NCBI GenBank assembly: GCA_023659935.1 | Contig: JAGXOK010000001.1 | Coordinates: 9,569 to 73,568 of the forward strand | Origin: Candidatus Aenigmarchaeota archaeon LH_S6 | GTDB taxonomy: Archaea; Aenigmatarchaeota; Aenigmatarchaeia; QMZS01 | Reading direction: 5' to 3' | DNA length: 64,000 nt | Part shown: positions 9,254-44,616 of the stretch, in pieces | Layout: every line of letters begins with the position of its first letter | How positions within the stretch are numbered: the first letter of the stretch is position 1 | Notes under the pieces: generated by a model | The model's input: only the letters and a program-made list of their open reading frames with translations | The model's database searches: none | What the model was told of the DNA's origin: nothing | Program-made: the position numbers and the translations under genes

Positions 9254-9690
9254 GTGATTCCTGAATGACTTCTATTAAATTCTTTCCCAGTTACCTTTTT
9301 CTATCTGGGCTACTTTACATAAGATTCTCCAAAAAGTAACTCTGTGTAGTTAGGTATACACTTCATCGGGTGTGATTGTATGTGGTAAACTGCACCTTCT
9401 GGTTTTTTTCTTCTCTTGGAGGTACACGAATAACTGCCTTGGATATATTTTCTAAAGGAGAACCTTCTGAAGTAAAACTAACAACATTTGCTCCTTGTTC
9501 CCCCCTATCTTTGCAGCATTTAAGGGAAAATCTTCACCTGAAACTGAAAAAATAATGAGACTATCACCTTCTTCCAAAGCTATTTCTCCTCTATCTCTAA
9601 AAAAATATGTTGGTCTTTTCTTGTCTTTCTCAACACAATGAGAGAATCTGGTAGCAAACATAGAACCATACTCTCCTGAAAGTCCAGTTC

Positions 9691-9888
9691 CTACAATAAC
9701 ATTGTTCTAAAGGAATGAAAAATTGAGTTATATGCAGATATTTCTGTAATTTCATATTCTTCTATTTTGTAAGTTTTATTTGCTGTATTCAAAAATCTTT
9801 CTGCAATTTTAATGGATTTCTGGATTCTTTCATTTGCTTTATAATCTTTTCTTATCAAACCTTTTTCCAAGCACTCTTTAAAGTTCAT
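9691..9888 (-). pseudogene. HEPN-domain protein, apparently truncated or frameshifted
   Basis: The 65-aa ORF ends ...SAYNSIFHSFRTMLL, which matches the HEPN helix AYYAMFHAARALLL. The expected C-terminal Rx4-6H part is missing or out of frame. It overlaps the upstream MNT gene by 4 nt. Confidence 0.4.
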
Positions 9889-10430
9889 AATTCCACTCCT
9901 TTGATAAGAATATAATTTTTTAAAACACTATTTGAAAAAGAGTCATTTTTTTTCTTCATAGTTTCCCATTTATAATAAGGAATAACTGTGAGTTGAATTT
10001 CCTTATTGCTCTTATTTTTTATACTTATCAATTTTTTATTGTTTATATCTTTGTTTTCACCAATTACCAGAATATCAATATCACTTTTTTCATCAAAATT
10101 TCCAGAAGCATAACTTCCATATATTGCAAGAGAATCCTCGTTTTTAACAATTTCTTCTATTCCTAGTTCCTTTAAATATGTTAAATAGTAAGCCTTTTTG
10201 TATTCTCTTGAAATATAATTTTCATTGTCTAGTCTGAATAGTTTTAAATTGGCTTGTTTCTTTTCTTTTAAAATATTTTCTTTTCTGAGTAAATAACAGT
10301 AAGTTTTTGCACTGCCAACACTTATCCCTAATTCTCTTGACAATTTCCTTATATGAATCTCTCTTGATGGATTCTTTAAAAAGAATTCCAGGACCATGAA
10401 TCCAACAAATTTCCTGAATTCTGATAGCAT
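9885..10430 (-). CDS. minimal nucleotidyltransferase (MNT) with N-terminal wHTH, partner of the HEPN fragment
   Basis: GSYASG...SDIDILVI Pol-beta NTase motif. N-terminal HTH-like region. Confidence 0.6.
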   Translation of the reverse strand: MLSEFRKFVGFMVLEFFLKNPSREIHIRKLSRELGISVGSAKTYCYLLRKENILKEKKQANLKLFRLDNENYISREYKKAYYLTYLKELGIEEIVKNEDSLAIYGSYASGNFDEKSDIDILVIGENKDINNKKLISIKNKSNKEIQLTVIPYYKWETMKKKNDSFSNSVLKNYILIKGVEL

Positions 10431-10493
10431 AACATATTAAACAATTGTTTAATATAAAAAACATTTGTTATCTTAAATTATTCGTATCTGCTA

Positions 10494-10722
10494 ATGGGGT
10501 TTCAATTTTTTAAAAAACGTAAAATCAATACTTGGAGTAGAAACCAGTTAGCAGGATATATAACCTATAAATCAGAAGATAGAGGAAAACCAACTATAAA
10601 AGTAAATCCTTACAAAAACAAGCCAGAGATGTTCTAAATGTGGGTATATCAAAAAAAGTAATAGAAATCACAAGATTCCATATCAAGTTTTCAGATTTGA
10701 GAAATCTGAGCCTATAATTTAG
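10494..10722 (+). pseudogene. IS200/IS605-family TnpB (OrfB) C-terminal fragment, degraded
   Basis: Two frames read WSRNQLAGYITYKSEDRGKPTIKVNPYKNKPEMF*, which lacks the TSQ-C of the consensus, and then SKCGYIKKSNRNHKIPYQVFRF. Together they resemble the TnpB C-terminal motif W..QL..YI.YKAE..G..V..V.P.YTSQ.C..CGY...NR. No N-terminal part is present. Confidence 0.45.
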
Positions 10723-10741
10723 ATAAACTTTAAAAGATTAT

Positions 10742-10962
10742 GGACCTGTAGCTCAGTAAAACTGCAAACAGTTTCCTTTAGAAATAGGCTTGATAAGCTT
10801 TCAAATTGCAGTTTTGGGTAATTGGATAGAGCACTTGCCTCCTAAGCAAGGGGTCGTCGGTTCAAAACAGGGGCTTTTTTACTTGAGGTTTTTGGAATAA
10901 GTGACAAAAAGTCAGTCAACCAAAAACAAATAAAAGTCTCTCTGAGAATCCGACCAGGTCCG
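10742..10962 (+). tRNA. tRNA-Arg (anticodon CCT) with two non-canonical introns: D-loop (about 10758-10824) and T-loop (about 10867-10948)
   Basis: 5' ggacctg-ta-gctc-ag. After a 67-nt insert comes ttggata-gagc-a-cttgc-ctcctaa-gcaag-gggtc-gtcgg-ttcaaa. After an 82-nt insert comes t-ccgac-caggtcc-g followed by an oligo-T. The spliced product is a canonical 74-nt cloverleaf. The acceptor and T stems pair perfectly only after splicing. Confidence 0.6.
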
Positions 10963-10973
10963 CTTTTTAGAAA

Positions 10974-12753: not shown

Positions 12754-13082
12754 CGCCGAGAGCAGGATTCGATTGCATAAGCCTTTCTGGTTAATTCCTC
12801 TATTGCAACCTTACAAACAGGAAATTGGTTAATAGGGGGTAGGTAAAGGTAAAAGCGGAAAAATGAAATTGGTTTTGGCTTGAATCTTTCGCTTAAATTT
12901 TTTCCCAAAAAAGGCTTTACCTGCGTTTCCTTACGGAAAACTAGTCTCAAGCCAGCCGCGTTAGGTCGCAAATAGCACCATCTGGGGTGCAGTTCTTGTT
13001 TTTTCAGAGAAAAAACAGATGTTCTATCTTTGATAGAACAACCTTTTTTAAAGGATTGCTTAGACCACTCCGCCATCTCGGC
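12754..13082 (-). tRNA. tRNA-Ser (anticodon TGA, class II) with two long non-canonical introns: D-loop (12961-13059) and T-loop (12773-12918)
   Basis: Minus strand: gccgaga-tg-gcg-gagtggtctaa[99-nt intron]cgc-g-gctgg-cttgaga-ctagt-tttccgtaaggaaa-c-gcagg-t[146-nt intron]tcgaat-cctgc-tctcggc-g. All stems pair and the spliced product is 84 nt. The six-frame ORF 12741-13076 coincides with this locus and is rejected. Confidence 0.55.
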
Positions 13083-23539: not shown

Positions 23540-23828
23540 GTTTCAATCCTTATTTCATTCGTTTTCTTTGAAAACGATGCACCGTTTTTCTTTGAAAAAC
23601 GAGTGTCTTGGACCTATCTCTAAAACGCAACCCTTTTCAAGGTAATTGTTGAAAAAGGTCTGCACCCTAAAAACTAAAATAACAGAATTATCACCCTGTT
23701 TTGGCTTGAGCCTTTTTAATTTATAATACCCATAAAAGGCTCATTTAATCCTTATTTCATTCGTTTTCTTCGAAAACGATGCACCGTTTTTCTTTGAAAA
23801 ACGAGTGTCATGGACCTATTTCTAAAAC
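23540..23828 (-). CRISPR. satellite repeat-X-repeat unit: two 85-87-nt expanded CRISPR repeats (each with a 52-nt twin-palindrome insertion) flanking a 117-nt X element
   Basis: 23540-23626 and 23744-23828 are the normal 37-nt repeat, with cattcgttttctttgaaaacgatgcaccgtttttctttgaaaaacgagtgtc inserted between cttattt and ctggacc. 23627-23743 is 95 percent identical to 25894-26009. Confidence 0.55.
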
Positions 23829-25145: not shown

Positions 25146-25265
25146 AGGTACACTAACTTCAAATAAATTATGTAATCCCAGAAATAAAAGAGAAATTGTA
25201 ACTAAAATAACAAATCCTAAAATTACCTTATTCTCTACAATAAATTTTCTCAATTCCATAATTCA

Positions 25266-26117
25266 GTATTTTAATCCTTATTTTACTGGATCTATTTCTA
25301 AAACTGCCATATCTCCTACTACATCATCAGAACTCTCCGTTGCGTTTCAATCCTTATTTTCATGGACCTATCTCTAAAACAGAAAATTTAGAAAATCTGG
25401 CTGAAGAGTATGGTATGTTTCAATCCTTATTTTCATGGACCTATCTCTAAAACTTTCTTTTAGGTCTATGTTTCCCCCCATTCCAGCATGTTTCAATCCT
25501 TATTTTACTGGACCTATCTCTAAAACATTAGATACAAGGGAGAGAAAGCTTGAAGAATCTAAAGTTTCAATCCTTATTTTACTGGACCTATCTCTAAAAC
25601 AGGAATGCGCTCCAGAATCTATCATTACTTTTCCTTGTTTCAATCCTTATTTTACTGGACCTATTTCTAAAACACAAAGGACTTAGAGGGAACATAAAAT
25701 ACAAAACCCTGTTTCAATCCTTATTTTCGTGGATCTATTTCTAAAACTAACTCTGGAGGACGGGTTCAACGCAACTTCTGATGGTTTCAATCCTTATTTT
25801 ACTGGATCTATCTCTAAAACGAGACAGGGAAAAACCAACAACCAACACCATATCACGTTTCAATCCTTATTTTACTGGATCTATCTCTAAAACGCAACCC
25901 TTTTCAAGGTAATTGTTGAAAAAGGTCTGCACCTCAAAAACTAAAATAACAGAGTTATCACCCTGTTTTGGCTTTAGCCTTTTTAATTTACAATACCCAT
26001 AAAAGGCTCATTCAATCCTTATTTTACTGGACCTATCTCTAAAACTGTATTTTCAAGAAGGAAAAACCTTATCTCTTCTCGTTTCAATCCTTATTTTACT
26101 GGACCTATCTCTAAAAC
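25266..26117 (-). CRISPR. CRISPR array of 11 repeats; 37-nt repeat GTTTCAATCCTTATTTTACTGGACCTATCTCTAAAAC on the + strand; 35-39-nt spacers
   Basis: Repeats at 25266 (degenerate), 25344, 25417, 25490, 25564, 25637, 25711, 25784, 25857, 26010 (5'-truncated) and 26081. The reverse complement starts GTTTTAGAG and ends ATTGAAAC (a typical 8-nt 5' handle), so it is probably transcribed from the minus strand. That places the leader at 26118-26677 beside cas6 and makes the degenerate 25266 repeat the terminal one. Confidence 0.85.
25894..26009. repeat. 116-nt X element inside the CRISPR array between repeats 9 and 10 (second copy at 23627-23743)
   Basis: Too long to be a spacer. It holds two hairpins (ccttttcaa..ttgaaaagg and agccttttta..taaaaggct). 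The adjacent repeat is 5'-truncated. Confidence 0.7.
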
Positions 26118-26550: not shown

Positions 26551-26664
26551 TTTGGGTGTTGGCCTTTTGATAGATTTAACCAATAAAGGCTGACTCTTTT
26601 TTTATTGACCAATTTTGTAGTTTGGGTGTTGGCCTTTTGATAGATTTAACCAATAAAGGCTGAC
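26551..26664. repeat. tandem duplicated 44-bp hairpin unit (period 70 bp) in the CRISPR leader / cas6 3' region, carrying a TTAACCAA loop motif
   Basis: TTTGGGTGTTGGCCTTTTGATAGATTTAACCAATAAAGGCTGAC occurs at 26551-26594 and 26621-26664. Confidence 0.8.
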
Positions 26665-26677
26665 AAGGGTTGCATAT

Positions 26678-27328
26678 TTAAACTGATTTAACTGTTCCAA
26701 AACCCTGTGAAACTCCTTTACCCAATCCAATAAATTCAGGTAATTTAAAATTGATTTTAAAATCACCAGTAAAACCAATCATAGGTACTTCTTTATATAC
26801 AACCGAGACAGGTTTAACTTTTGTCTTGACTTTTAATTCAGACAAAACAACATATTCAAATGCTTTTGCAACAGAAAGAATATTTCCAATCAGGACCTTG
26901 TGCAATAGCAATGTCTGTTCTTTTTTATTTAAACTATTATACTCTTTATAATTCTTCTCATTCAAAGCTATCCATGGTATGACAAACCTATATTTTCTCT
27001 CTTTTTCACTAAAACAAAAGTTCTGATATTTTTCTATTGTCTTTTTTTCTACAATTTTGTAACTGCTTGTTCCCAATTTAAGGTTGTCAAACTCATTCGA
27101 AATATTTTTTAAAGCAGTTGCACCCTCATTAATACCTAAAATAACTGGAGTGCCTTCTATTACTTTGTATTGTACTAGTGGATAAGTATATAGATAATTT
27201 TTCTCCAGATGATGATGTAAGATTGGTTCATCTCTAAATTTATTCCCAACAAAACCGCGGAGAAATGTTCCGGATTCTTTAACAGGTTTATTTGTTTTCA
27301 GAATTAAAGTATAAATTAAAAGTTCCAT
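26678..27328 (-). CDS. cas6: CRISPR-associated endoribonuclease Cas6
   Basis: Adjacent to the array on the inferred leader side. C-terminal glycine-rich loop GLGKGVSQGFGTV. RRM-like size of 216 aa. Confidence 0.65.
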   Translation of the reverse strand: MELLIYTLILKTNKPVKESGTFLRGFVGNKFRDEPILHHHLEKNYLYTYPLVQYKVIEGTPVILGINEGATALKNISNEFDNLKLGTSSYKIVEKKTIEKYQNFCFSEKERKYRFVIPWIALNEKNYKEYNSLNKKEQTLLLHKVLIGNILSVAKAFEYVVLSELKVKTKVKPVSVVYKEVPMIGFTGDFKINFKLPEFIGLGKGVSQGFGTVKSV

Positions 27329-30085: not shown

Positions 30086-30221
30086 AGCCACGGGAGGGAC
30101 TTGAACCCCCAACCTGCGGTTTACAAAACCGCTGCTCCACCAGTTACCCCAACCTTTTATTTTCCTATCGACGCTTTTTGATGGACTTAACCAATAAAAG
30201 GGTTGATTGAGCCACCGTGGC
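30086..30221 (-). tRNA. tRNA-Thr (anticodon TGT) with a ~63-nt D-loop intron (about 30144-30206)
   Basis: Minus strand: gccacgg-tg-gctc-aa[intron]ctggtg-gagc-a-gcggt-tttgtaa-accgc-aggtt-ggggg-ttcaagt-ccctc-ccgtggc-t. The acceptor stem pairs perfectly and the discriminator is U, as is common for Thr. The intron contains the TTAACCAATAAAAGG motif on the opposite strand. Confidence 0.6.
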
Positions 30222-37188: not shown

Positions 37189-37600
37189 AATATGTTATGA
37201 AGAAAGGTTTAACAATGGGTGTACTATTTTGGGTACTTATATTTTTTATAGTACTTATTGTTTTTGTCTCTCTTGCCCTGTGGAGTAAAGGTTTTGGTTT
37301 AAATATTTTAAGTGCTTTATTAGGCTCAGTACCTTAGTATGGGGAATATAGGTTTGATAATATTATATGTTGTTTTGGGTTTAGTGTTTATTCTCCTTGT
37401 ATTTTCTGTTGGTTCAGCCCTCTCTTTAATATGAAAAGAGTTTTTTTTTGCTTGAGCCTTTTTAGTAAACTTAACCAACAAAAGGCTTATATGAAAGGAA
37501 TAACTATCGATATGATTGCGAGTATTATAATTTTATTTATGGTTTTTATAATCCTTACTGTAATTTTTATAGCAATGGGTAATGCAATACCATCCCCAAC

Positions 37601-43173: not shown

Positions 43174-44616
43174 ATGAAAGATAAATTAAAGAAAATTTCT
43201 GATGTAGAATATTTGGTTTCAAAAGAAGTAAGGGAAAAAATGAGGGTAAATGCAAAGATACTTGTTACCAATAAAATTATTGAAGCTGCTGAGGATGAGG
43301 CAATAAAACAACTCACAAATGTTGCCTGTCTGCCTGGGGTTGTGGAGCCTGTCTACGGCATGCCTGATATTCACTGGGGTTATGGTCTGCCTATGGGAGC
43401 TATAGGGGCTTTTAACTCTGAGGAAGGTGTAATTTCAAGTGGGTGCACTGGTTTTGATATTAACTGCGGAATCAGGATGATTAAAACAAATTTAACCTAT
43501 AAAGAAATTAAACCAAAATTAAAGCAATTAATTAATGTTTTGTTTCATAATGTTCCAACAGGGGTTGGCTCAAAGGGGAAATTGAGATTGTCAAGAGATG
43601 AATTAGATGAAGTTCTTGTTAAAGGAGCAAGATGGGCTATGGAAAATAATTATGCAACAAAAGAAGATTTGCAACATATGGAGGAATACGGTAATATGTC
43701 TGGTGCAAGTGTAGATAAAATTTCTGATTTGGCAAAAAAGAGGGGTCTTCCACAATTAGGAACTTTGGGTGCAGGGAATCATTTTCTGGAAATTCAGAAA
43801 GTTGACCAGATTTTTGATTCTGAAACTGCAAAAATTTTTGGTGTTACTGACAAGGATCAGATTATTGTAATGTTACATTGTGGTTCTCGTGGTTTGGGTC
43901 ATCAGATTGCCACAGATTATTTGAAAATTCATGAAAAGGCTGCAAAAAAATATAATATCTGGCTTCCAGACAAGCAACTTGTTTGTGCTCCTGCAAATTC
44001 TAAGGAAGGACAGGATTATTTTGAAGCAATGAAAGGAGGGGTAAATTATGCTTTTACAAACAGAACTGTGATGACAGATTGGATTAGAGAGAGTTTTGAA
44101 AAAGTTTTTGGAAAAACTAGAGAGGAAATGGATATGAAACTAATTTATGATGTGTGCCACAATATTTGTAAACTGGAAGAACATGAAGTTGAAGGTGAGA
44201 AAAGAAAATTATATGTTCATAGGAAAGGAGCAACAAGAAGTCTTCCTGCCGGACATGAGTTATTACCAGAAACTTACAAAAAAGTGGGGCAGCCTGTTTT
44301 AATTGCGGGTTCAATGGGAACTGCAAGTTATATTTTAGTTGGAGGTGAAAAAGCAAAGAAAACTTTTTACTCGAGTTGCCATGGAGCAGGAAGAGTAATG
44401 AGCAGGAGCAAAGCAATAAGAGATTTCAGGGGGAATACAATTAGAGAAGAATTAGCTAAAAGAGGAATTACTGCAAAGTCCACAAGCCCAAAAATTCTGG
44501 CTGAAGAATCACCAAATGCTTATAAGGATATTGACGAAGTTGCAAAAGCAGTTGACATTGCGGGAATCTCAAAGAAAGTTGTTCGGGTTGTTCCTGTTGG
44601 GGTTGTTAAGGGATAA
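43174..44616 (+). CDS. rtcB: RNA-splicing ligase RtcB
   Basis: HWGYGLPMG, NCGIRM, GAGNHF and SCHGAG motifs. 480 aa. Confidence 0.85.
   Translation: MKDKLKKISDVEYLVSKEVREKMRVNAKILVTNKIIEAAEDEAIKQLTNVACLPGVVEPVYGMPDIHWGYGLPMGAIGAFNSEEGVISSGCTGFDINCGIRMIKTNLTYKEIKPKLKQLINVLFHNVPTGVGSKGKLRLSRDELDEVLVKGARWAMENNYATKEDLQHMEEYGNMSGASVDKISDLAKKRGLPQLGTLGAGNHFLEIQKVDQIFDSETAKIFGVTDKDQIIVMLHCGSRGLGHQIATDYLKIHEKAAKKYNIWLPDKQLVCAPANSKEGQDYFEAMKGGVNYAFTNRTVMTDWIRESFEKVFGKTREEMDMKLIYDVCHNICKLEEHEVEGEKRKLYVHRKGATRSLPAGHELLPETYKKVGQPVLIAGSMGTASYILVGGEKAKKTFYSSCHGAGRVMSRSKAIRDFRGNTIREELAKRGITAKSTSPKILAEESPNAYKDIDEVAKAVDIAGISKKVVRVVPVGVVKG

What the first reader, a model, noticed from the sequence alone, without database searches (positions are those of the whole stretch)
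10742..10962. tRNA-Arg(CCU) with introns in both the D-loop and the T-loop
ggacctg/caggtcc acceptor halves and gtcgg/ccgac T-stem halves are separated by a ~67-nt insert after tagctcag and an ~82-nt insert inside the TTCAAAT loop. The second insert contains oligo-T runs that would normally terminate transcription. The spliced product is a canonical 74-nt tRNA. The intron architecture matches the Ser and Thr genes, so this looks like a lineage-wide feature. The gene abuts a TnpB remnant upstream and is followed directly by pelota.
Basis: seen in the sequence. Interest (0 to 1): 0.75.

Follow-up and report, generated by a model that had tools for sequence, protein, structure and literature searches.

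The report
Two-intron archaeal tRNA-Arg gene
This is a genuine arginine tRNA gene of a tiny (DPANN, Aenigmatarchaeota) archaeon, interrupted by two protein-spliced introns; such introns are a known archaeal feature that standard tRNA finders miss, and close relatives show one of the two was gained very recently.

Summary
Window 10742-10962 (+) encodes tRNA-Arg(CCU) in three exons (10742-10756, 10822-10866, 10949-10962). They are separated by a 65-nt intron in the D-loop (position 15/16) and an 82-nt intron in the T-loop (59/60). Joining the exons gives a 74-nt sequence that ARAGORN calls tRNA-Arg(cct). It is 69/74 identical to an intron-less ortholog that scores 74.5 bits on the Rfam tRNA model. 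Both junctions fold into the bulge-helix-bulge (BHB) motif cut by the archaeal splicing endonuclease: strict for the T-loop intron, relaxed for the D-loop intron. The ligase RtcB is encoded in the same window. A relative with 92% identical pelota lacks the D-loop intron exactly at the predicted junction, so that intron is a recent gain. More distant orthologs carry their intron at 37/38 or 53/54 instead. Oligo-T runs are common inside genes here (36 T6+ runs in 34 long ORFs), so they are not obligate terminators. Non-canonical and multiple BHB introns are already documented in DPANN and Thermoproteales, so this is a new member of a known kind. One extra lead: the intron cores belong to short hairpin-element families that recur in other tRNA introns, in intergenic DNA and in the CRISPR array. 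A 50-nt twin-hairpin element also shows clean empty and filled sites.

The parts
10713..10720 (+). A/T-rich box TATAATTT at -29..-22 from tRNA position 1; candidate archaeal TATA box of the single upstream promoter
   Evidence: Read directly. The upstream ~35 nt (ATAATTT(T)AGATAAA...AAAAGATTAT) are conserved in L001, L065 and L006. Promoter function is inferred, not tested.
10742..10756 (+). Exon 1: acceptor 5' strand, U8 A9, D-stem 5' strand, A14 G15 (GGACCTGTAGCTCAG)
   Evidence: Identical in L001, L065 and L067.
10757..10821 (+). Intron 1, 65 nt, D-loop position 15/16. Relaxed BHB: H = GCUC/GGGU (4 bp), bulges AG|U and AA|U, h' = 10 bp (AAAACUGCAA/UUGCAGUUUU), h only 2 bp
   Evidence: BHB scan, fold. 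Precisely absent from L001, whose D-loop reads AGTTGGATA without interruption. Present with 1 substitution in L065/L066.
10822..10866 (+). Exon 2: rest of D-arm, anticodon arm (anticodon CCT), variable loop, T-stem 5' strand and T-loop positions 54-59
   Evidence: The 29-nt core is identical in 55 genome loci, mostly DPANN tRNA-Arg(CCU) genes.
10867..10948 (+). Intron 2, 82 nt, T-loop position 59/60. Strict hBHBh': h = T-stem GUCGG/CCGAC, H = UUCA/UGAG, bulges AA|A and AA|U, h' = 10 bp after one C-C mismatch. Contains the T6 and T5 runs
   Evidence: The orthologous intron in L001 and L065 is the same sequence plus a ~55-nt internal insert that carries the 50-nt twin-hairpin element.
10949..10962 (+). 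Exon 3: U60, T-stem 3' strand, acceptor 3' strand, discriminator G73; no encoded CCA
10964..10968 (+). T5 run two bases after the discriminator; likely transcription stop for the pre-tRNA
   Evidence: Termination function is inferred from established knowledge of archaeal oligo-T termination.
43174..44616 (+). RtcB, the tRNA-splicing ligase that would join the exon halves
   Evidence: Pfam PF01139, E=1.8e-171.

Best explanation
A single-copy tRNA-Arg(CCU) gene is transcribed as one ~225-nt precursor from the A/T box about 26 nt upstream to the T5 run just past the discriminator.

In the precursor, each exon-intron boundary pair folds into a bulge-helix-bulge motif. In the T-loop the geometry copies a canonical anticodon-loop intron. 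The T-stem plays the part of the anticodon stem, UUCA pairs with UGAG, and the cuts fall after the second base of each 3-nt bulge, at 59/60. In the D-loop, the 5' strand of the D-stem (GCUC) pairs with GGGU at the intron's 3' end, next to a 10-bp intron helix, and the cuts fall at 15/16.

The archaeal splicing endonuclease (EndA) cuts all four sites. RtcB, encoded in this window, ligates the three exons and probably circularises the introns. RNase P, RNase Z and the CCA-adding enzyme finish the 74-nt tRNA.

Shown here: the sequence anatomy, the BHB geometry, the cloverleaf of the spliced product, the presence of RtcB, and the exact intron-less allele in a relative. Inferred: transcription as one unit, cleavage by EndA and the order of steps.
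For: 1. The spliced 74-mer is called tRNA-Arg(cct) by ARAGORN. It is 69/74 identical to the intron-less ortholog in L052, which scores 74.5 bits on Rfam tRNA against a gathering score of 29. By my reading of the two sequences, the stem differences are compensatory.
2. Both introns meet the BHB pattern: a 4-bp H helix with two 3-nt bulges. Intron 2 has h=5 and h'=10; intron 1 has h=2 and h'=10.
3. The precursor folds much better than shuffles (z=-4.33, 0 of 200 shuffles as good). The MFE structure contains the acceptor stem, the anticodon stem and both intron helices. A conformer with both BHBs enforced lies at -61.9 kcal/mol against -67.8 for the MFE.
4. L001 (pelota 92% identical) has the same gene with the D-loop uninterrupted exactly where intron 1 is predicted to be removed. 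L065/L066 (96%) have both introns. The exons are identical in all three.
5. Other DPANN tRNA-Arg(CCU) genes with the identical 29-nt exon core carry introns at 59/60 and in the D-loop.
6. RtcB is encoded at 43174-44616.
7. AGG makes up 193 of 622 Arg codons in the long ORFs, so a decoder is needed.
8. A 59/60 intron of a DPANN archaeon (ARMAN-2) has been cleaved in vitro by its endonuclease (PMC3239211).
Against: There is no RNA-level evidence. EndA was not found among the 38 window ORFs of at least 140 aa that were scanned, so its presence and type in this genome are unknown. Intron 1 has only a 2-bp outer helix with one G-U pair, so it needs a broad-specificity enzyme. The T6 run in intron 2 could cause some premature termination. 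tRNA-Arg(UCU) might also read AGG, so the gene need not be essential. The double-BHB conformer lies 5.9 kcal/mol above the MFE.
Confidence: 0.88

Rival explanations
1. Split-tRNA expression: the T6 run in intron 2 ends a first transcript, a second promoter drives the 3' piece, and the pieces are joined in trans as in Nanoarchaeum or Caldivirga.
For: T6 (10875-10880) and T5 (10889-10893) runs lie in intron 2. An A-rich stretch (AAACAAATAAAAG) lies about 20-30 nt before exon 3. The long h' helix resembles the complementary leaders of split tRNAs.
Against: The pieces are contiguous and colinear. The 3' piece would be only 14 nt. The T6 run and the A-rich stretch are the two strands of the same h' helix. 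Of 34 long ORFs, 21 contain at least one T6+ run on the sense strand, so read-through of such runs must be routine here. Only the upstream promoter-like region is conserved among orthologs that carry different introns.
Confidence: 0.03
2. Dead gene: a tRNA-Arg(CCU) gene disrupted by two insertions of small mobile elements and no longer functional, with decoding taken over by another tRNA.
For: The intron cores resemble short elements that also occur outside tRNA genes. Intron 1 is a recent insertion. Only 64 kb of the genome is visible, so another copy cannot be excluded.
Against: All 74 exon positions are identical in three genomes whose pelota genes differ by 4-7% at the nucleotide level, while the introns did change. 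Both insertions sit so that intact BHB motifs form, with cuts that restore a perfect cloverleaf. The gene keeps its syntenic place between gatD and pelota across relatives down to 54% pelota identity.
Confidence: 0.06
3. The inserts are self-splicing (group I or II) introns or some other ribozyme, not BHB introns.
For: Group I introns occur in bacterial tRNA genes and have been reported in archaea (titles listed).
Against: At 65 and 82 nt the inserts are far too small. There was no Rfam intron or ribozyme hit even at E<=10. Both junctions fit the BHB rule exactly.
Confidence: 0.01

Closest known systems
ARMAN-2 (Ca. Micrarchaeum, DPANN) disrupted tRNAs: pre-tRNA-Cys(GCA) with a 59/60 intron and pre-tRNA-Pro(GGG) with two T-loop introns (Fujishima et al. 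2011, PMC3239211)
   Same: DPANN host. Intron at 59/60 in the T-loop bounded by a BHB motif. More than one intron per tRNA gene. Genes missed by standard finders.
   Different: The second intron here lies in the D-loop at 15/16, a position not named in the papers I read. The introns are longer (65 and 82 nt, against 13 nt for the 59/60 intron that was assayed there). The host is Aenigmatarchaeota, and its endonuclease type is unknown (epsilon2 in ARMAN-2).
Thermoproteales multi-intron tRNAs and tRNA-intron transposition (Sugahara 2008 and Fujishima 2010, as summarised in PMC4090602)
   Same: Up to three BHB introns per gene at non-canonical positions (20/21, 53/54, 59/60 and others). Related intron sequences occur at different positions and in different tRNAs, which implies recent gain. 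Here the introns of Arg, Thr, Ser and Ala genes share cores with p<=0.002.
   Different: A different superphylum (DPANN, ~31% GC). Related core sequences also occur free-standing outside tRNA genes, including in a CRISPR array. A filled/empty pair for a whole intron is seen between genomes with 92% identical pelota.
DPANN alpha4-type EndA with the L3 loop and raised tRNA gene disruption (Kaneta et al. 2018, PMC5829648)
   Same: That paper reports marked tRNA gene disruption and incomplete predicted tRNA sets in DPANN genomes. This gene is the kind of hidden gene it anticipates.
   Different: Aenigmatarchaeota were not among the DPANN genomes whose tRNA genes were newly predicted in the passage I read. 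The enzyme of this organism was not seen here.
Split and tri-split tRNAs (Nanoarchaeum equitans, Caldivirga maquilingensis)
   Same: The same BHB-based joining chemistry, with long complementary helices next to the junctions.
   Different: Those pieces lie at separate loci with their own promoters. Here all three exons are contiguous under one promoter-like region.
Euryarchaeal tRNA-Trp intron that doubles as a box C/D guide RNA
   Same: A long structured intron in an archaeal tRNA gene.
   Different: I saw no C (RUGAUGA) or D (CUGA) box pair on reading either intron, and Rfam gave only a 9.8-bit chance-level snoRNA hit in the region. No function for the excised introns is indicated.

Membership tests
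Archaeal BHB (bulge-helix-bulge) tRNA intron | Two 3-nt bulges on opposite strands separated by a 4-bp helix, with cleavage after the second bulge base on each strand | tested here: met
   Intron 1: H = GCUC/GGGU, bulges AG|U and AA|U. Intron 2: H = UUCA/UGAG, bulges AA|A and AA|U.
Archaeal BHB (bulge-helix-bulge) tRNA intron | Strict hBHBh' form: stable outer helices on both sides | tested here: met
   Met for intron 2 (h = 5-bp T-stem, h' = 10 bp after one C-C mismatch). Intron 1 has h' = 10 bp but h of only 2 bp, so it is the relaxed HBh' form, which needs a broad-specificity enzyme.
Archaeal BHB (bulge-helix-bulge) tRNA intron | Removal at the predicted sites gives a canonical tRNA | tested here: met
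   ARAGORN calls the 74-nt product tRNA-Arg(cct). It is 69/74 identical to an intron-less ortholog that scores 74.5 bits on Rfam RF00005.
Archaeal BHB (bulge-helix-bulge) tRNA intron | An intron-less allele exists with the junction exactly at the predicted splice site | tested here: met
   L001 reads GCTCAG|TTGGATAGAGC without interruption. For intron 2 only more distant intron-less orthologs were found (L034, L052).
Archaeal BHB (bulge-helix-bulge) tRNA intron | The host encodes the splicing endonuclease EndA and the ligase RtcB | tested here: inconclusive
   RtcB is found in the window. No EndA domain was found in the 38 window ORFs scanned. The rest of the genome was not available.
Archaeal BHB (bulge-helix-bulge) tRNA intron | Spliced tRNA and excised (circular) intron detectable in RNA | not testable with these tools
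   No transcript data were available.
Split / tri-split tRNA | Pieces encoded at separate loci, each with its own promoter and a complementary leader | tested here: not met
   The three exons are contiguous within 221 nt. One conserved upstream A/T box is seen. The 3' piece is 14 nt.
Transposing tRNA-intron families (Thermoproteales type) | Significantly similar intron sequences at different positions or in different tRNA genes | tested here: met
   Local alignments at p<=0.002 against shuffles link Thr 15/16, Ser 54/55, Arg 59/60, L002 and L008 Arg 37/38, and L007 Ala D-loop introns. Arg intron 1 shares a 14/15 match with the L007 Ala D-loop intron.
Group I / II self-splicing intron | Conserved ribozyme core of hundreds of nucleotides | tested here: not met
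   The inserts are 65 and 82 nt, with no Rfam hit at E<=10.

The most novel reading that the evidence does not exclude
The two introns may be tolerated insertions of small DNA-level mobile elements rather than idiosyncratic spacers. Both are built around copies of a ~45-nt hairpin element, which I call E (AGCCUUUU-loop-AAAAGGCUYRAGCCAAAA). E recurs at positions 15/16, 37/38, 54/55 and 59/60 in at least five tRNA genes of related Aenigmatarchaeota. It also occurs free-standing in this window (37440-37488, 23698-23742, 25965-26009, the last two in the CRISPR array region).

A second element, which I call M, is an exactly 50-nt twin hairpin. It inserts at A|AA sites in E loops, in CRISPR repeats (23556-23605, 23758-23807) and in an IS5-like transposase ORF. 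It is missing from this window's intron 2 but present in the two closest relatives.

If this reading is right, the lineage offers filled-site and empty-site evidence for how archaeal tRNA introns arise and change: a mini-element lands in a tRNA gene and survives where a BHB motif lets EndA remove it.
Probability: 0.3. Interest if true: 0.7.

Novelty: new member of a known kind. Interest (0 to 1): 0.38.

Why it matters
It matters in three ways.

1. Annotation. ARAGORN and Rfam see none of the three intron-containing tRNA genes in this window as complete genes, and find only part of one of them. Genomes of this lineage will therefore look as if they lack essential tRNAs, which skews completeness and codon-capacity estimates.

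2. Timing of intron turnover. The orthologous tRNA-Arg(CCU) gene shows five different intron layouts across relatives. One intron is present or absent between genomes whose pelota proteins are 92% identical. That is an unusually sharp snapshot of tRNA-intron turnover outside the Thermoproteales.

3. Intron origin. The intron cores are shared with free-standing copies and with a CRISPR array, and a 50-nt element has clean empty and filled sites. This makes the long-standing question of where non-canonical archaeal tRNA introns come from testable in this group. The basic phenomenon itself is already known.

Tried and rejected
- Raw scans. ARAGORN with and without the intron option and Rfam at gathering and E<=10 thresholds found nothing at the locus. 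This shows detection failure, not absence.
- Alternative splice register for intron 1. H = CUCA/UGGG with cuts at 16/17 would give an 11-nt D-loop (AGUAUUGGAUA). It is rejected because L001's uninterrupted D-loop is AGTTGGATA.
- A mirror-image BHB with the bulge 5' of the central helix. I rejected it on geometric grounds; the canonical motif has the helix first and then the bulge on both strands.
- My BHB-plus-ARAGORN solver failed on the distant two-intron loci L011, L016, L021, L026 and L043, and on the D-arm intron of tRNA-Ser. Those were read by eye instead.
- C/D box, H/ACA or hammerhead motifs in the introns or in the 50-nt element: I saw none on reading the sequences.
- BHB motif at the ends of the 50-nt element: none could be drawn, because the flanks are not conserved. 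I first took the frame offsets around the element in the transposase ORF as evidence for RNA-level removal. I then saw that a recent DNA insertion gives the same pattern, and two of the four copies carry further frameshifts.
- IS200/IS605-type target rule for the 50-nt element: there is no conserved 4-5-nt target on its 5' side, only A|AA.
- IMG/VR scans for both elements. One gave 0 hits. The other gave 56 hits, none with the element's upstream hairpin arm, so I take them as chance matches.
- The 386-388-aa ORFs upstream of the tRNA in L002 and L004 are not TnpB. They have no Pfam hit and no similarity to the window remnant.
- Arg intron 1 shares an exact 12-mer with a CRISPR repeat variant (p about 0.001). 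This is left unexplained.

Full report
**1. What is in the sequence**

Window 10742-10962 (+) reads GGACCTGTAGCTCAG, then 65 nt, then TTGGATAGAGCACTTGCCTCCTAAGCAAGGGGTCGTCGGTTCAAA, then 82 nt, then TCCGACCAGGTCCG. The gene is invisible to standard tools as it stands. ARAGORN finds no tRNA anywhere in the 64-kb window, with or without its intron option. Rfam finds nothing at this locus even at E<=10.

Joining the three pieces gives a 74-nt sequence that ARAGORN folds as a normal cloverleaf, tRNA-Arg(cct). It has U8, A14, G18 G19, a 5-bp anticodon stem, the loop CUCCUAA, the T-arm GUCGG-UUCAAAU-CCGAC and discriminator G. No CCA is encoded.

I could not run a covariance model on a custom sequence. 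As a proxy, intron-less orthologs with the same 29-nt core score 65-74.5 bits on Rfam tRNA, against a gathering score of 29. The spliced product is 69/74 identical to the best of them, and by my reading the stem differences are compensatory.

**2. Is it more than chance?**

I wrote a scan for the BHB geometry: a 4-bp helix H, a 3-nt bulge on each strand 3' of H, and cleavage after the second bulge base. Loose BHB candidates are common, about 8,000 per strand. I spliced out 33,586 single and paired candidates and passed the products to ARAGORN. It reported tRNAs at only two places in the window: this locus and the tRNA-Thr gene at 30086-30221. The 221-nt precursor also folds far better than dinucleotide shuffles (z=-4.33, 0 of 200 as good). 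Its MFE structure contains the acceptor stem, the anticodon stem and both long intron helices.

**3. Anatomy of the two introns**

*Intron 2 (10867-10948, 82 nt)* is a textbook hBHBh' motif moved into the T-arm. The T-stem GUCGG/CCGAC is the outer helix. UUCA pairs with UGAG as the central helix. The bulges are AA|A and AA|U. A 10-bp helix follows after one C-C mismatch. The cuts fall at 59/60 and restore the loop UUCAAAU. The layout is the exact analogue of a canonical 37/38 intron in the anticodon arm.

*Intron 1 (10757-10821, 65 nt)* uses the 5' strand of the D-stem, GCUC, as one strand of the central helix. It pairs with GGGU at the intron's 3' end. The bulges are AG|U and AA|U, and the inner helix is a perfect 10 bp (AAAACUGCAA/UUGCAGUUUU). 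The outer helix is only 2 bp (A9-U, U8-G), so this is the relaxed HBh' form. A one-base-shifted register was possible on paper. Comparison with a relative ruled it out (section 4).

A conformer with both BHBs enforced has -61.9 kcal/mol, against -67.8 for the unconstrained MFE.

**4. Relatives**

The pelota gene downstream places the window in Candidatus Aenigmatarchaeota (DPANN). Contigs carrying pelota homologs gave the orthologous tRNA locus in several genomes.

| Locus | Pelota identity | tRNA-Arg(CCU) intron layout |
|---|---|---|
| L067 | identical DNA at the locus | same as the window |
| L065/L066 (GCA_023659955.1) | 96% protein | both introns; intron 1 differs by one base; intron 2 is 137 nt |
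| L001 (GCA_023658875.1) | 92% protein, 93% nucleotide | no intron 1 (D-loop reads GCTCAGTTGGATAGAGC); long form of intron 2 |
| L002/L003 | 72% | one 111-nt intron in the anticodon loop (37/38) |
| L009 (partial contig) | 64% | 37/38 intron like L002, as far as the contig reaches |
| L004/L005/L006 | 73-74% | one 16-nt intron at 53/54 (H = CGCA/UGCG by my reading) |
| L008 | 54% | one 45-nt intron at 37/38 |

L001 fixes the splice register of intron 1 at 15/16. By parsimony, intron 1 was gained after the split from L001. All 74 exon positions are identical in the window, L065 and L001.

A genome-collection scan with the 29-nt middle-exon core returned 55 loci. Among the DPANN loci, several carry a D-loop intron just before TAGAGC, which I read as about position 20/21, together with a 59/60 intron: L011, L016, L021 (Micrarchaeota), and L026 and L043 (Aenigmatarchaeota). 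Several carry only the 59/60 intron: L015, L025 and four Nanohaloarchaeota. Many have none. So the tendency is lineage-wide, but the positions are not fixed.

**5. Other intron-containing tRNA genes in the window**

tRNA-Thr(UGU) lies on the minus strand at 30221-30086. It has one 63-nt intron at the same 15/16 position and with the same central helix GCUC/GGGU.

tRNA-Ser(UGA) lies on the minus strand at 13082-12754. It has a 98-nt D-arm intron and a 146-nt intron at 54/55. My manual splice is accepted by ARAGORN as tRNA-Ser(tga).

**6. The T-runs**

Intron 2 has T6 (10875-10880) and T5 (10889-10893) runs. On the sense strand of 34 stop-to-stop ORFs of at least 200 aa (44 kb) there are 130 T5+ and 36 T6+ runs, and 21 of the 34 ORFs hold at least one T6+ run. 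Such runs therefore cannot be obligate terminators in this ~31% GC organism.

The T6 run is one strand of the h' helix and pairs with the AAAA of ...AAAUAAAAGUCUCU. It is conserved in L001 and L065. A T5 run follows two bases after the discriminator and is the likely real stop. Partial termination inside the intron cannot be excluded without RNA data.

**7. Surroundings and machinery**

- The upstream TnpB remnant is real. Read across one frameshift, it matches PF07282 at E=1.4e-10.
- Compared with L001 and L065, the window has an extra ~1.4 kb between gatD and the tRNA. It holds a nucleotidyltransferase/HEPN pair (9691-10430, minus strand) and the TnpB remnant.
- RtcB, the tRNA-splicing ligase, is at 43174-44616 (E=1.8e-171).
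- No EndA domain was found in the 38 ORFs of at least 140 aa that I scanned. The endonuclease must lie elsewhere in the genome.
- AGG supplies 193 of 622 arginine codons in the long ORFs.

**8. How it most likely works**

One precursor is made from the conserved A/T box at -29..-22. EndA cuts the four bulge sites, and RtcB joins the exons. RNase P, RNase Z and CCA addition complete the tRNA.

- Shown here: the anatomy, the spliced cloverleaf, RtcB, and the intron-less allele.
- Inferred: single-unit transcription, cleavage by EndA and the order of events.
- Supported from the literature: a DPANN endonuclease cleaves a 59/60 BHB intron in vitro (PMC3239211). Non-canonical positions including 20/21, 53/54 and 59/60, and up to three introns per gene, are established (PMC4090602; PMC3239211). 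DPANN lineages with L3-loop EndAs show marked tRNA gene disruption and incomplete predicted tRNA sets (PMC5829648).

I found no paper in the held library that treats Aenigmatarchaeota tRNA introns specifically. Position 15/16 is not among the positions named in the texts I read.

**9. Rivals**

*Split expression* is unlikely. The pieces are contiguous, the 3' piece is 14 nt, and the T-run and the A-rich box are the two strands of one helix.

*A dead gene* is unlikely. The exons are perfectly conserved while the introns changed, and both insertions preserve exact BHB geometry.

*Self-splicing introns* are excluded by size and by the absence of any ribozyme match.

**10. Beyond the finding: modular intron cores**

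Pairwise local alignment against shuffles (p<=0.002) links the following:
- the Thr 15/16 intron;
- the Ser 54/55 intron;
- the core of Arg intron 2;
- the L002 and L008 Arg 37/38 introns;
- the L007 tRNA-Ala D-loop intron;
- two sequences outside tRNA genes in this window: an intergenic copy at 37440-37488, and a 117-nt segment lying between CRISPR repeats whose E copy is at 23698-23742, with a second copy at 25965-26009.

All share one hairpin element, AGCCTTTT-loop-AAAAGGCTYRAGCCAAAA, which I call E. Its 3' motif occurs 4 times in the window against 0.38 expected by chance. Arg intron 1 shares a 14/15 match with the E copy at the start of the L007 Ala D-loop intron.

The ~55 nt by which intron 2 of L001 and L065 exceeds the window's intron 2 contains a separate element, which I call M. 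It is a twin hairpin that starts with CAC and ends with ATG. It has one bulged base three pairs from each outer end, and its two ends are inverted repeats of each other.
- *CRISPR repeats.* M interrupts two CRISPR repeats in this window (23556-23605 and 23758-23807, minus strand). Deleting exactly 50 nt restores an intact repeat; the core matches the variant ...GGTCCATGAAAATAAGG... seen elsewhere in the array.
- *Other tRNA introns.* A metagenome scan found M in tRNA introns at three positions, in both AT-rich and GC-rich archaea. One tRNA (L093) has two introns with the same scaffold, one with M and one without.
- *A transposase gene.* M also sits inside an IS5-like transposase ORF. Deleting the 50 nt there restores a continuous stop-free reading frame of 250-259 aa across the junction.
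- *Target site.* All insertion sites read A|AA.

I could not draw a BHB at M's ends. A DNA-level insertion element is the simplest reading. Its absence from the window's intron 2 is then a near-precise loss, one A off within an A-run. Neither E nor M was found in IMG/VR. This part is a lead, not a conclusion.

**11. Verdict**

[quoted passage not shown] Its added value lies in three things: standard tools fail to detect it, one intron is demonstrably a recent gain, and the intron cores look modular and possibly mobile.

Noticed in passing
window 23556-23605 and 23758-23807 (minus strand), within 23542-23828: Two CRISPR repeats are each interrupted by an exactly 50-nt twin-hairpin element (CACTCGTTTTTCAAAGAAAAACGGTGCATCGTTTTCRAAGAAAACGAATG). 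Deleting it restores an intact repeat whose core matches a variant seen in the main array. The same element sits in the T-loop intron of the tRNA-Arg gene of L001 and L065, but not in this window's intron 2.
   Followed up: partly
L077, L080, L092, L101 (metagenome contigs), around the match to ACACYCGTTT...AAACGGTGC: The same 50-nt (49-nt in L101) element lies inside an IS5/DUF772-like transposase ORF at GCA|AAC. Removing it gives a continuous 250-259 aa stop-free reading frame in L092 and L080. L077 and L101 carry further frameshifts. Whether it is removed or bypassed at the RNA level is unknown.
   Followed up: partly
L129, L088/L079/L094/L116, L070, L093/L068, L119: The twin-hairpin element also occurs in tRNA introns at D-loop, anticodon-loop and T-loop positions, in both AT-rich and ~54% GC archaea. 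In L093 two introns of one tRNA share a scaffold, one with the element and one without. All insertion sites read A|AA.
   Followed up: partly
window 37440-37488 (-), 23698-23742 (-), 25965-26009 (-): Free-standing copies of a hairpin element (AGCCTTTT-loop-AAAAGGCTCAAGCCAAAA) that also forms the core of several tRNA introns (Ser 54/55, Thr 15/16, Arg 59/60, L002/L008 Arg 37/38, L007 Ala D-loop). Two copies lie inside over-long 'spacers' of the CRISPR array region.
   Followed up: partly
window 30086-30221 (minus strand): tRNA-Thr(UGU) with one 63-nt BHB intron (30144-30206) at D-loop position 15/16, using the same central helix GCUC/GGGU as Arg intron 1. Rfam sees only the 3' two-thirds of the gene (32 bits).
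   Followed up: yes
window 12754-13082 (minus strand): tRNA-Ser(UGA) in three exons (13082-13059, 12960-12919, 12772-12754), with a 98-nt D-arm intron and a 146-nt intron at 54/55. ARAGORN accepts the manual splice. My strict BHB rule did not fit the D-arm junction.
   Followed up: partly
window 26551-26594 and 26621-26664: Two identical 44-mers just downstream of cas6b (minus strand: GTCAGCCTTTATTGGTTAAATCTATCAAAAGGCCAACACCCAAA). They resemble the 5' part of the tRNA-Thr intron and of the L002 Arg intron. Their nature is unknown.
   Followed up: no
window 10776-10788 vs CRISPR repeats (e.g. 25660-25671, 23815-23826): Arg intron 1 shares the exact 12-mer TTTAGAAATAGG with a CRISPR repeat variant (p about 0.001 against shuffles of the intron). 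It could be chance or a link through the hairpin element family. Unexplained.
   Followed up: partly
window 9376-10740 compared with L001 3667-3780 and L065 850-977: Relative to its two closest relatives, the window has ~1.4 kb extra between gatD and tRNA-Arg: a nucleotidyltransferase/HEPN pair (9691-10430, minus strand) and a frameshifted TnpB C-terminal remnant (~10505-10720).
   Followed up: partly
window 25248-26117 and 26678-27328: A CRISPR array (37-nt repeat, Rfam CRISPR-DR7) with cas6b next to it. One unit of the array is double length (152 nt spacing), and a ~150-nt stretch of it is duplicated at 95% identity at 23609-23757.
   Followed up: no
L004/L005/L006, L019, L044, L054: The orthologous tRNA-Arg(CCU) gene in these relatives carries a 16-nt mini-intron at 53/54 (GCAGG|TGAGTTTCTCTGCGAA|TTCGAG). 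By my reading it has H = CGCA/UGCG and a 3-bp inner helix.
   Followed up: partly
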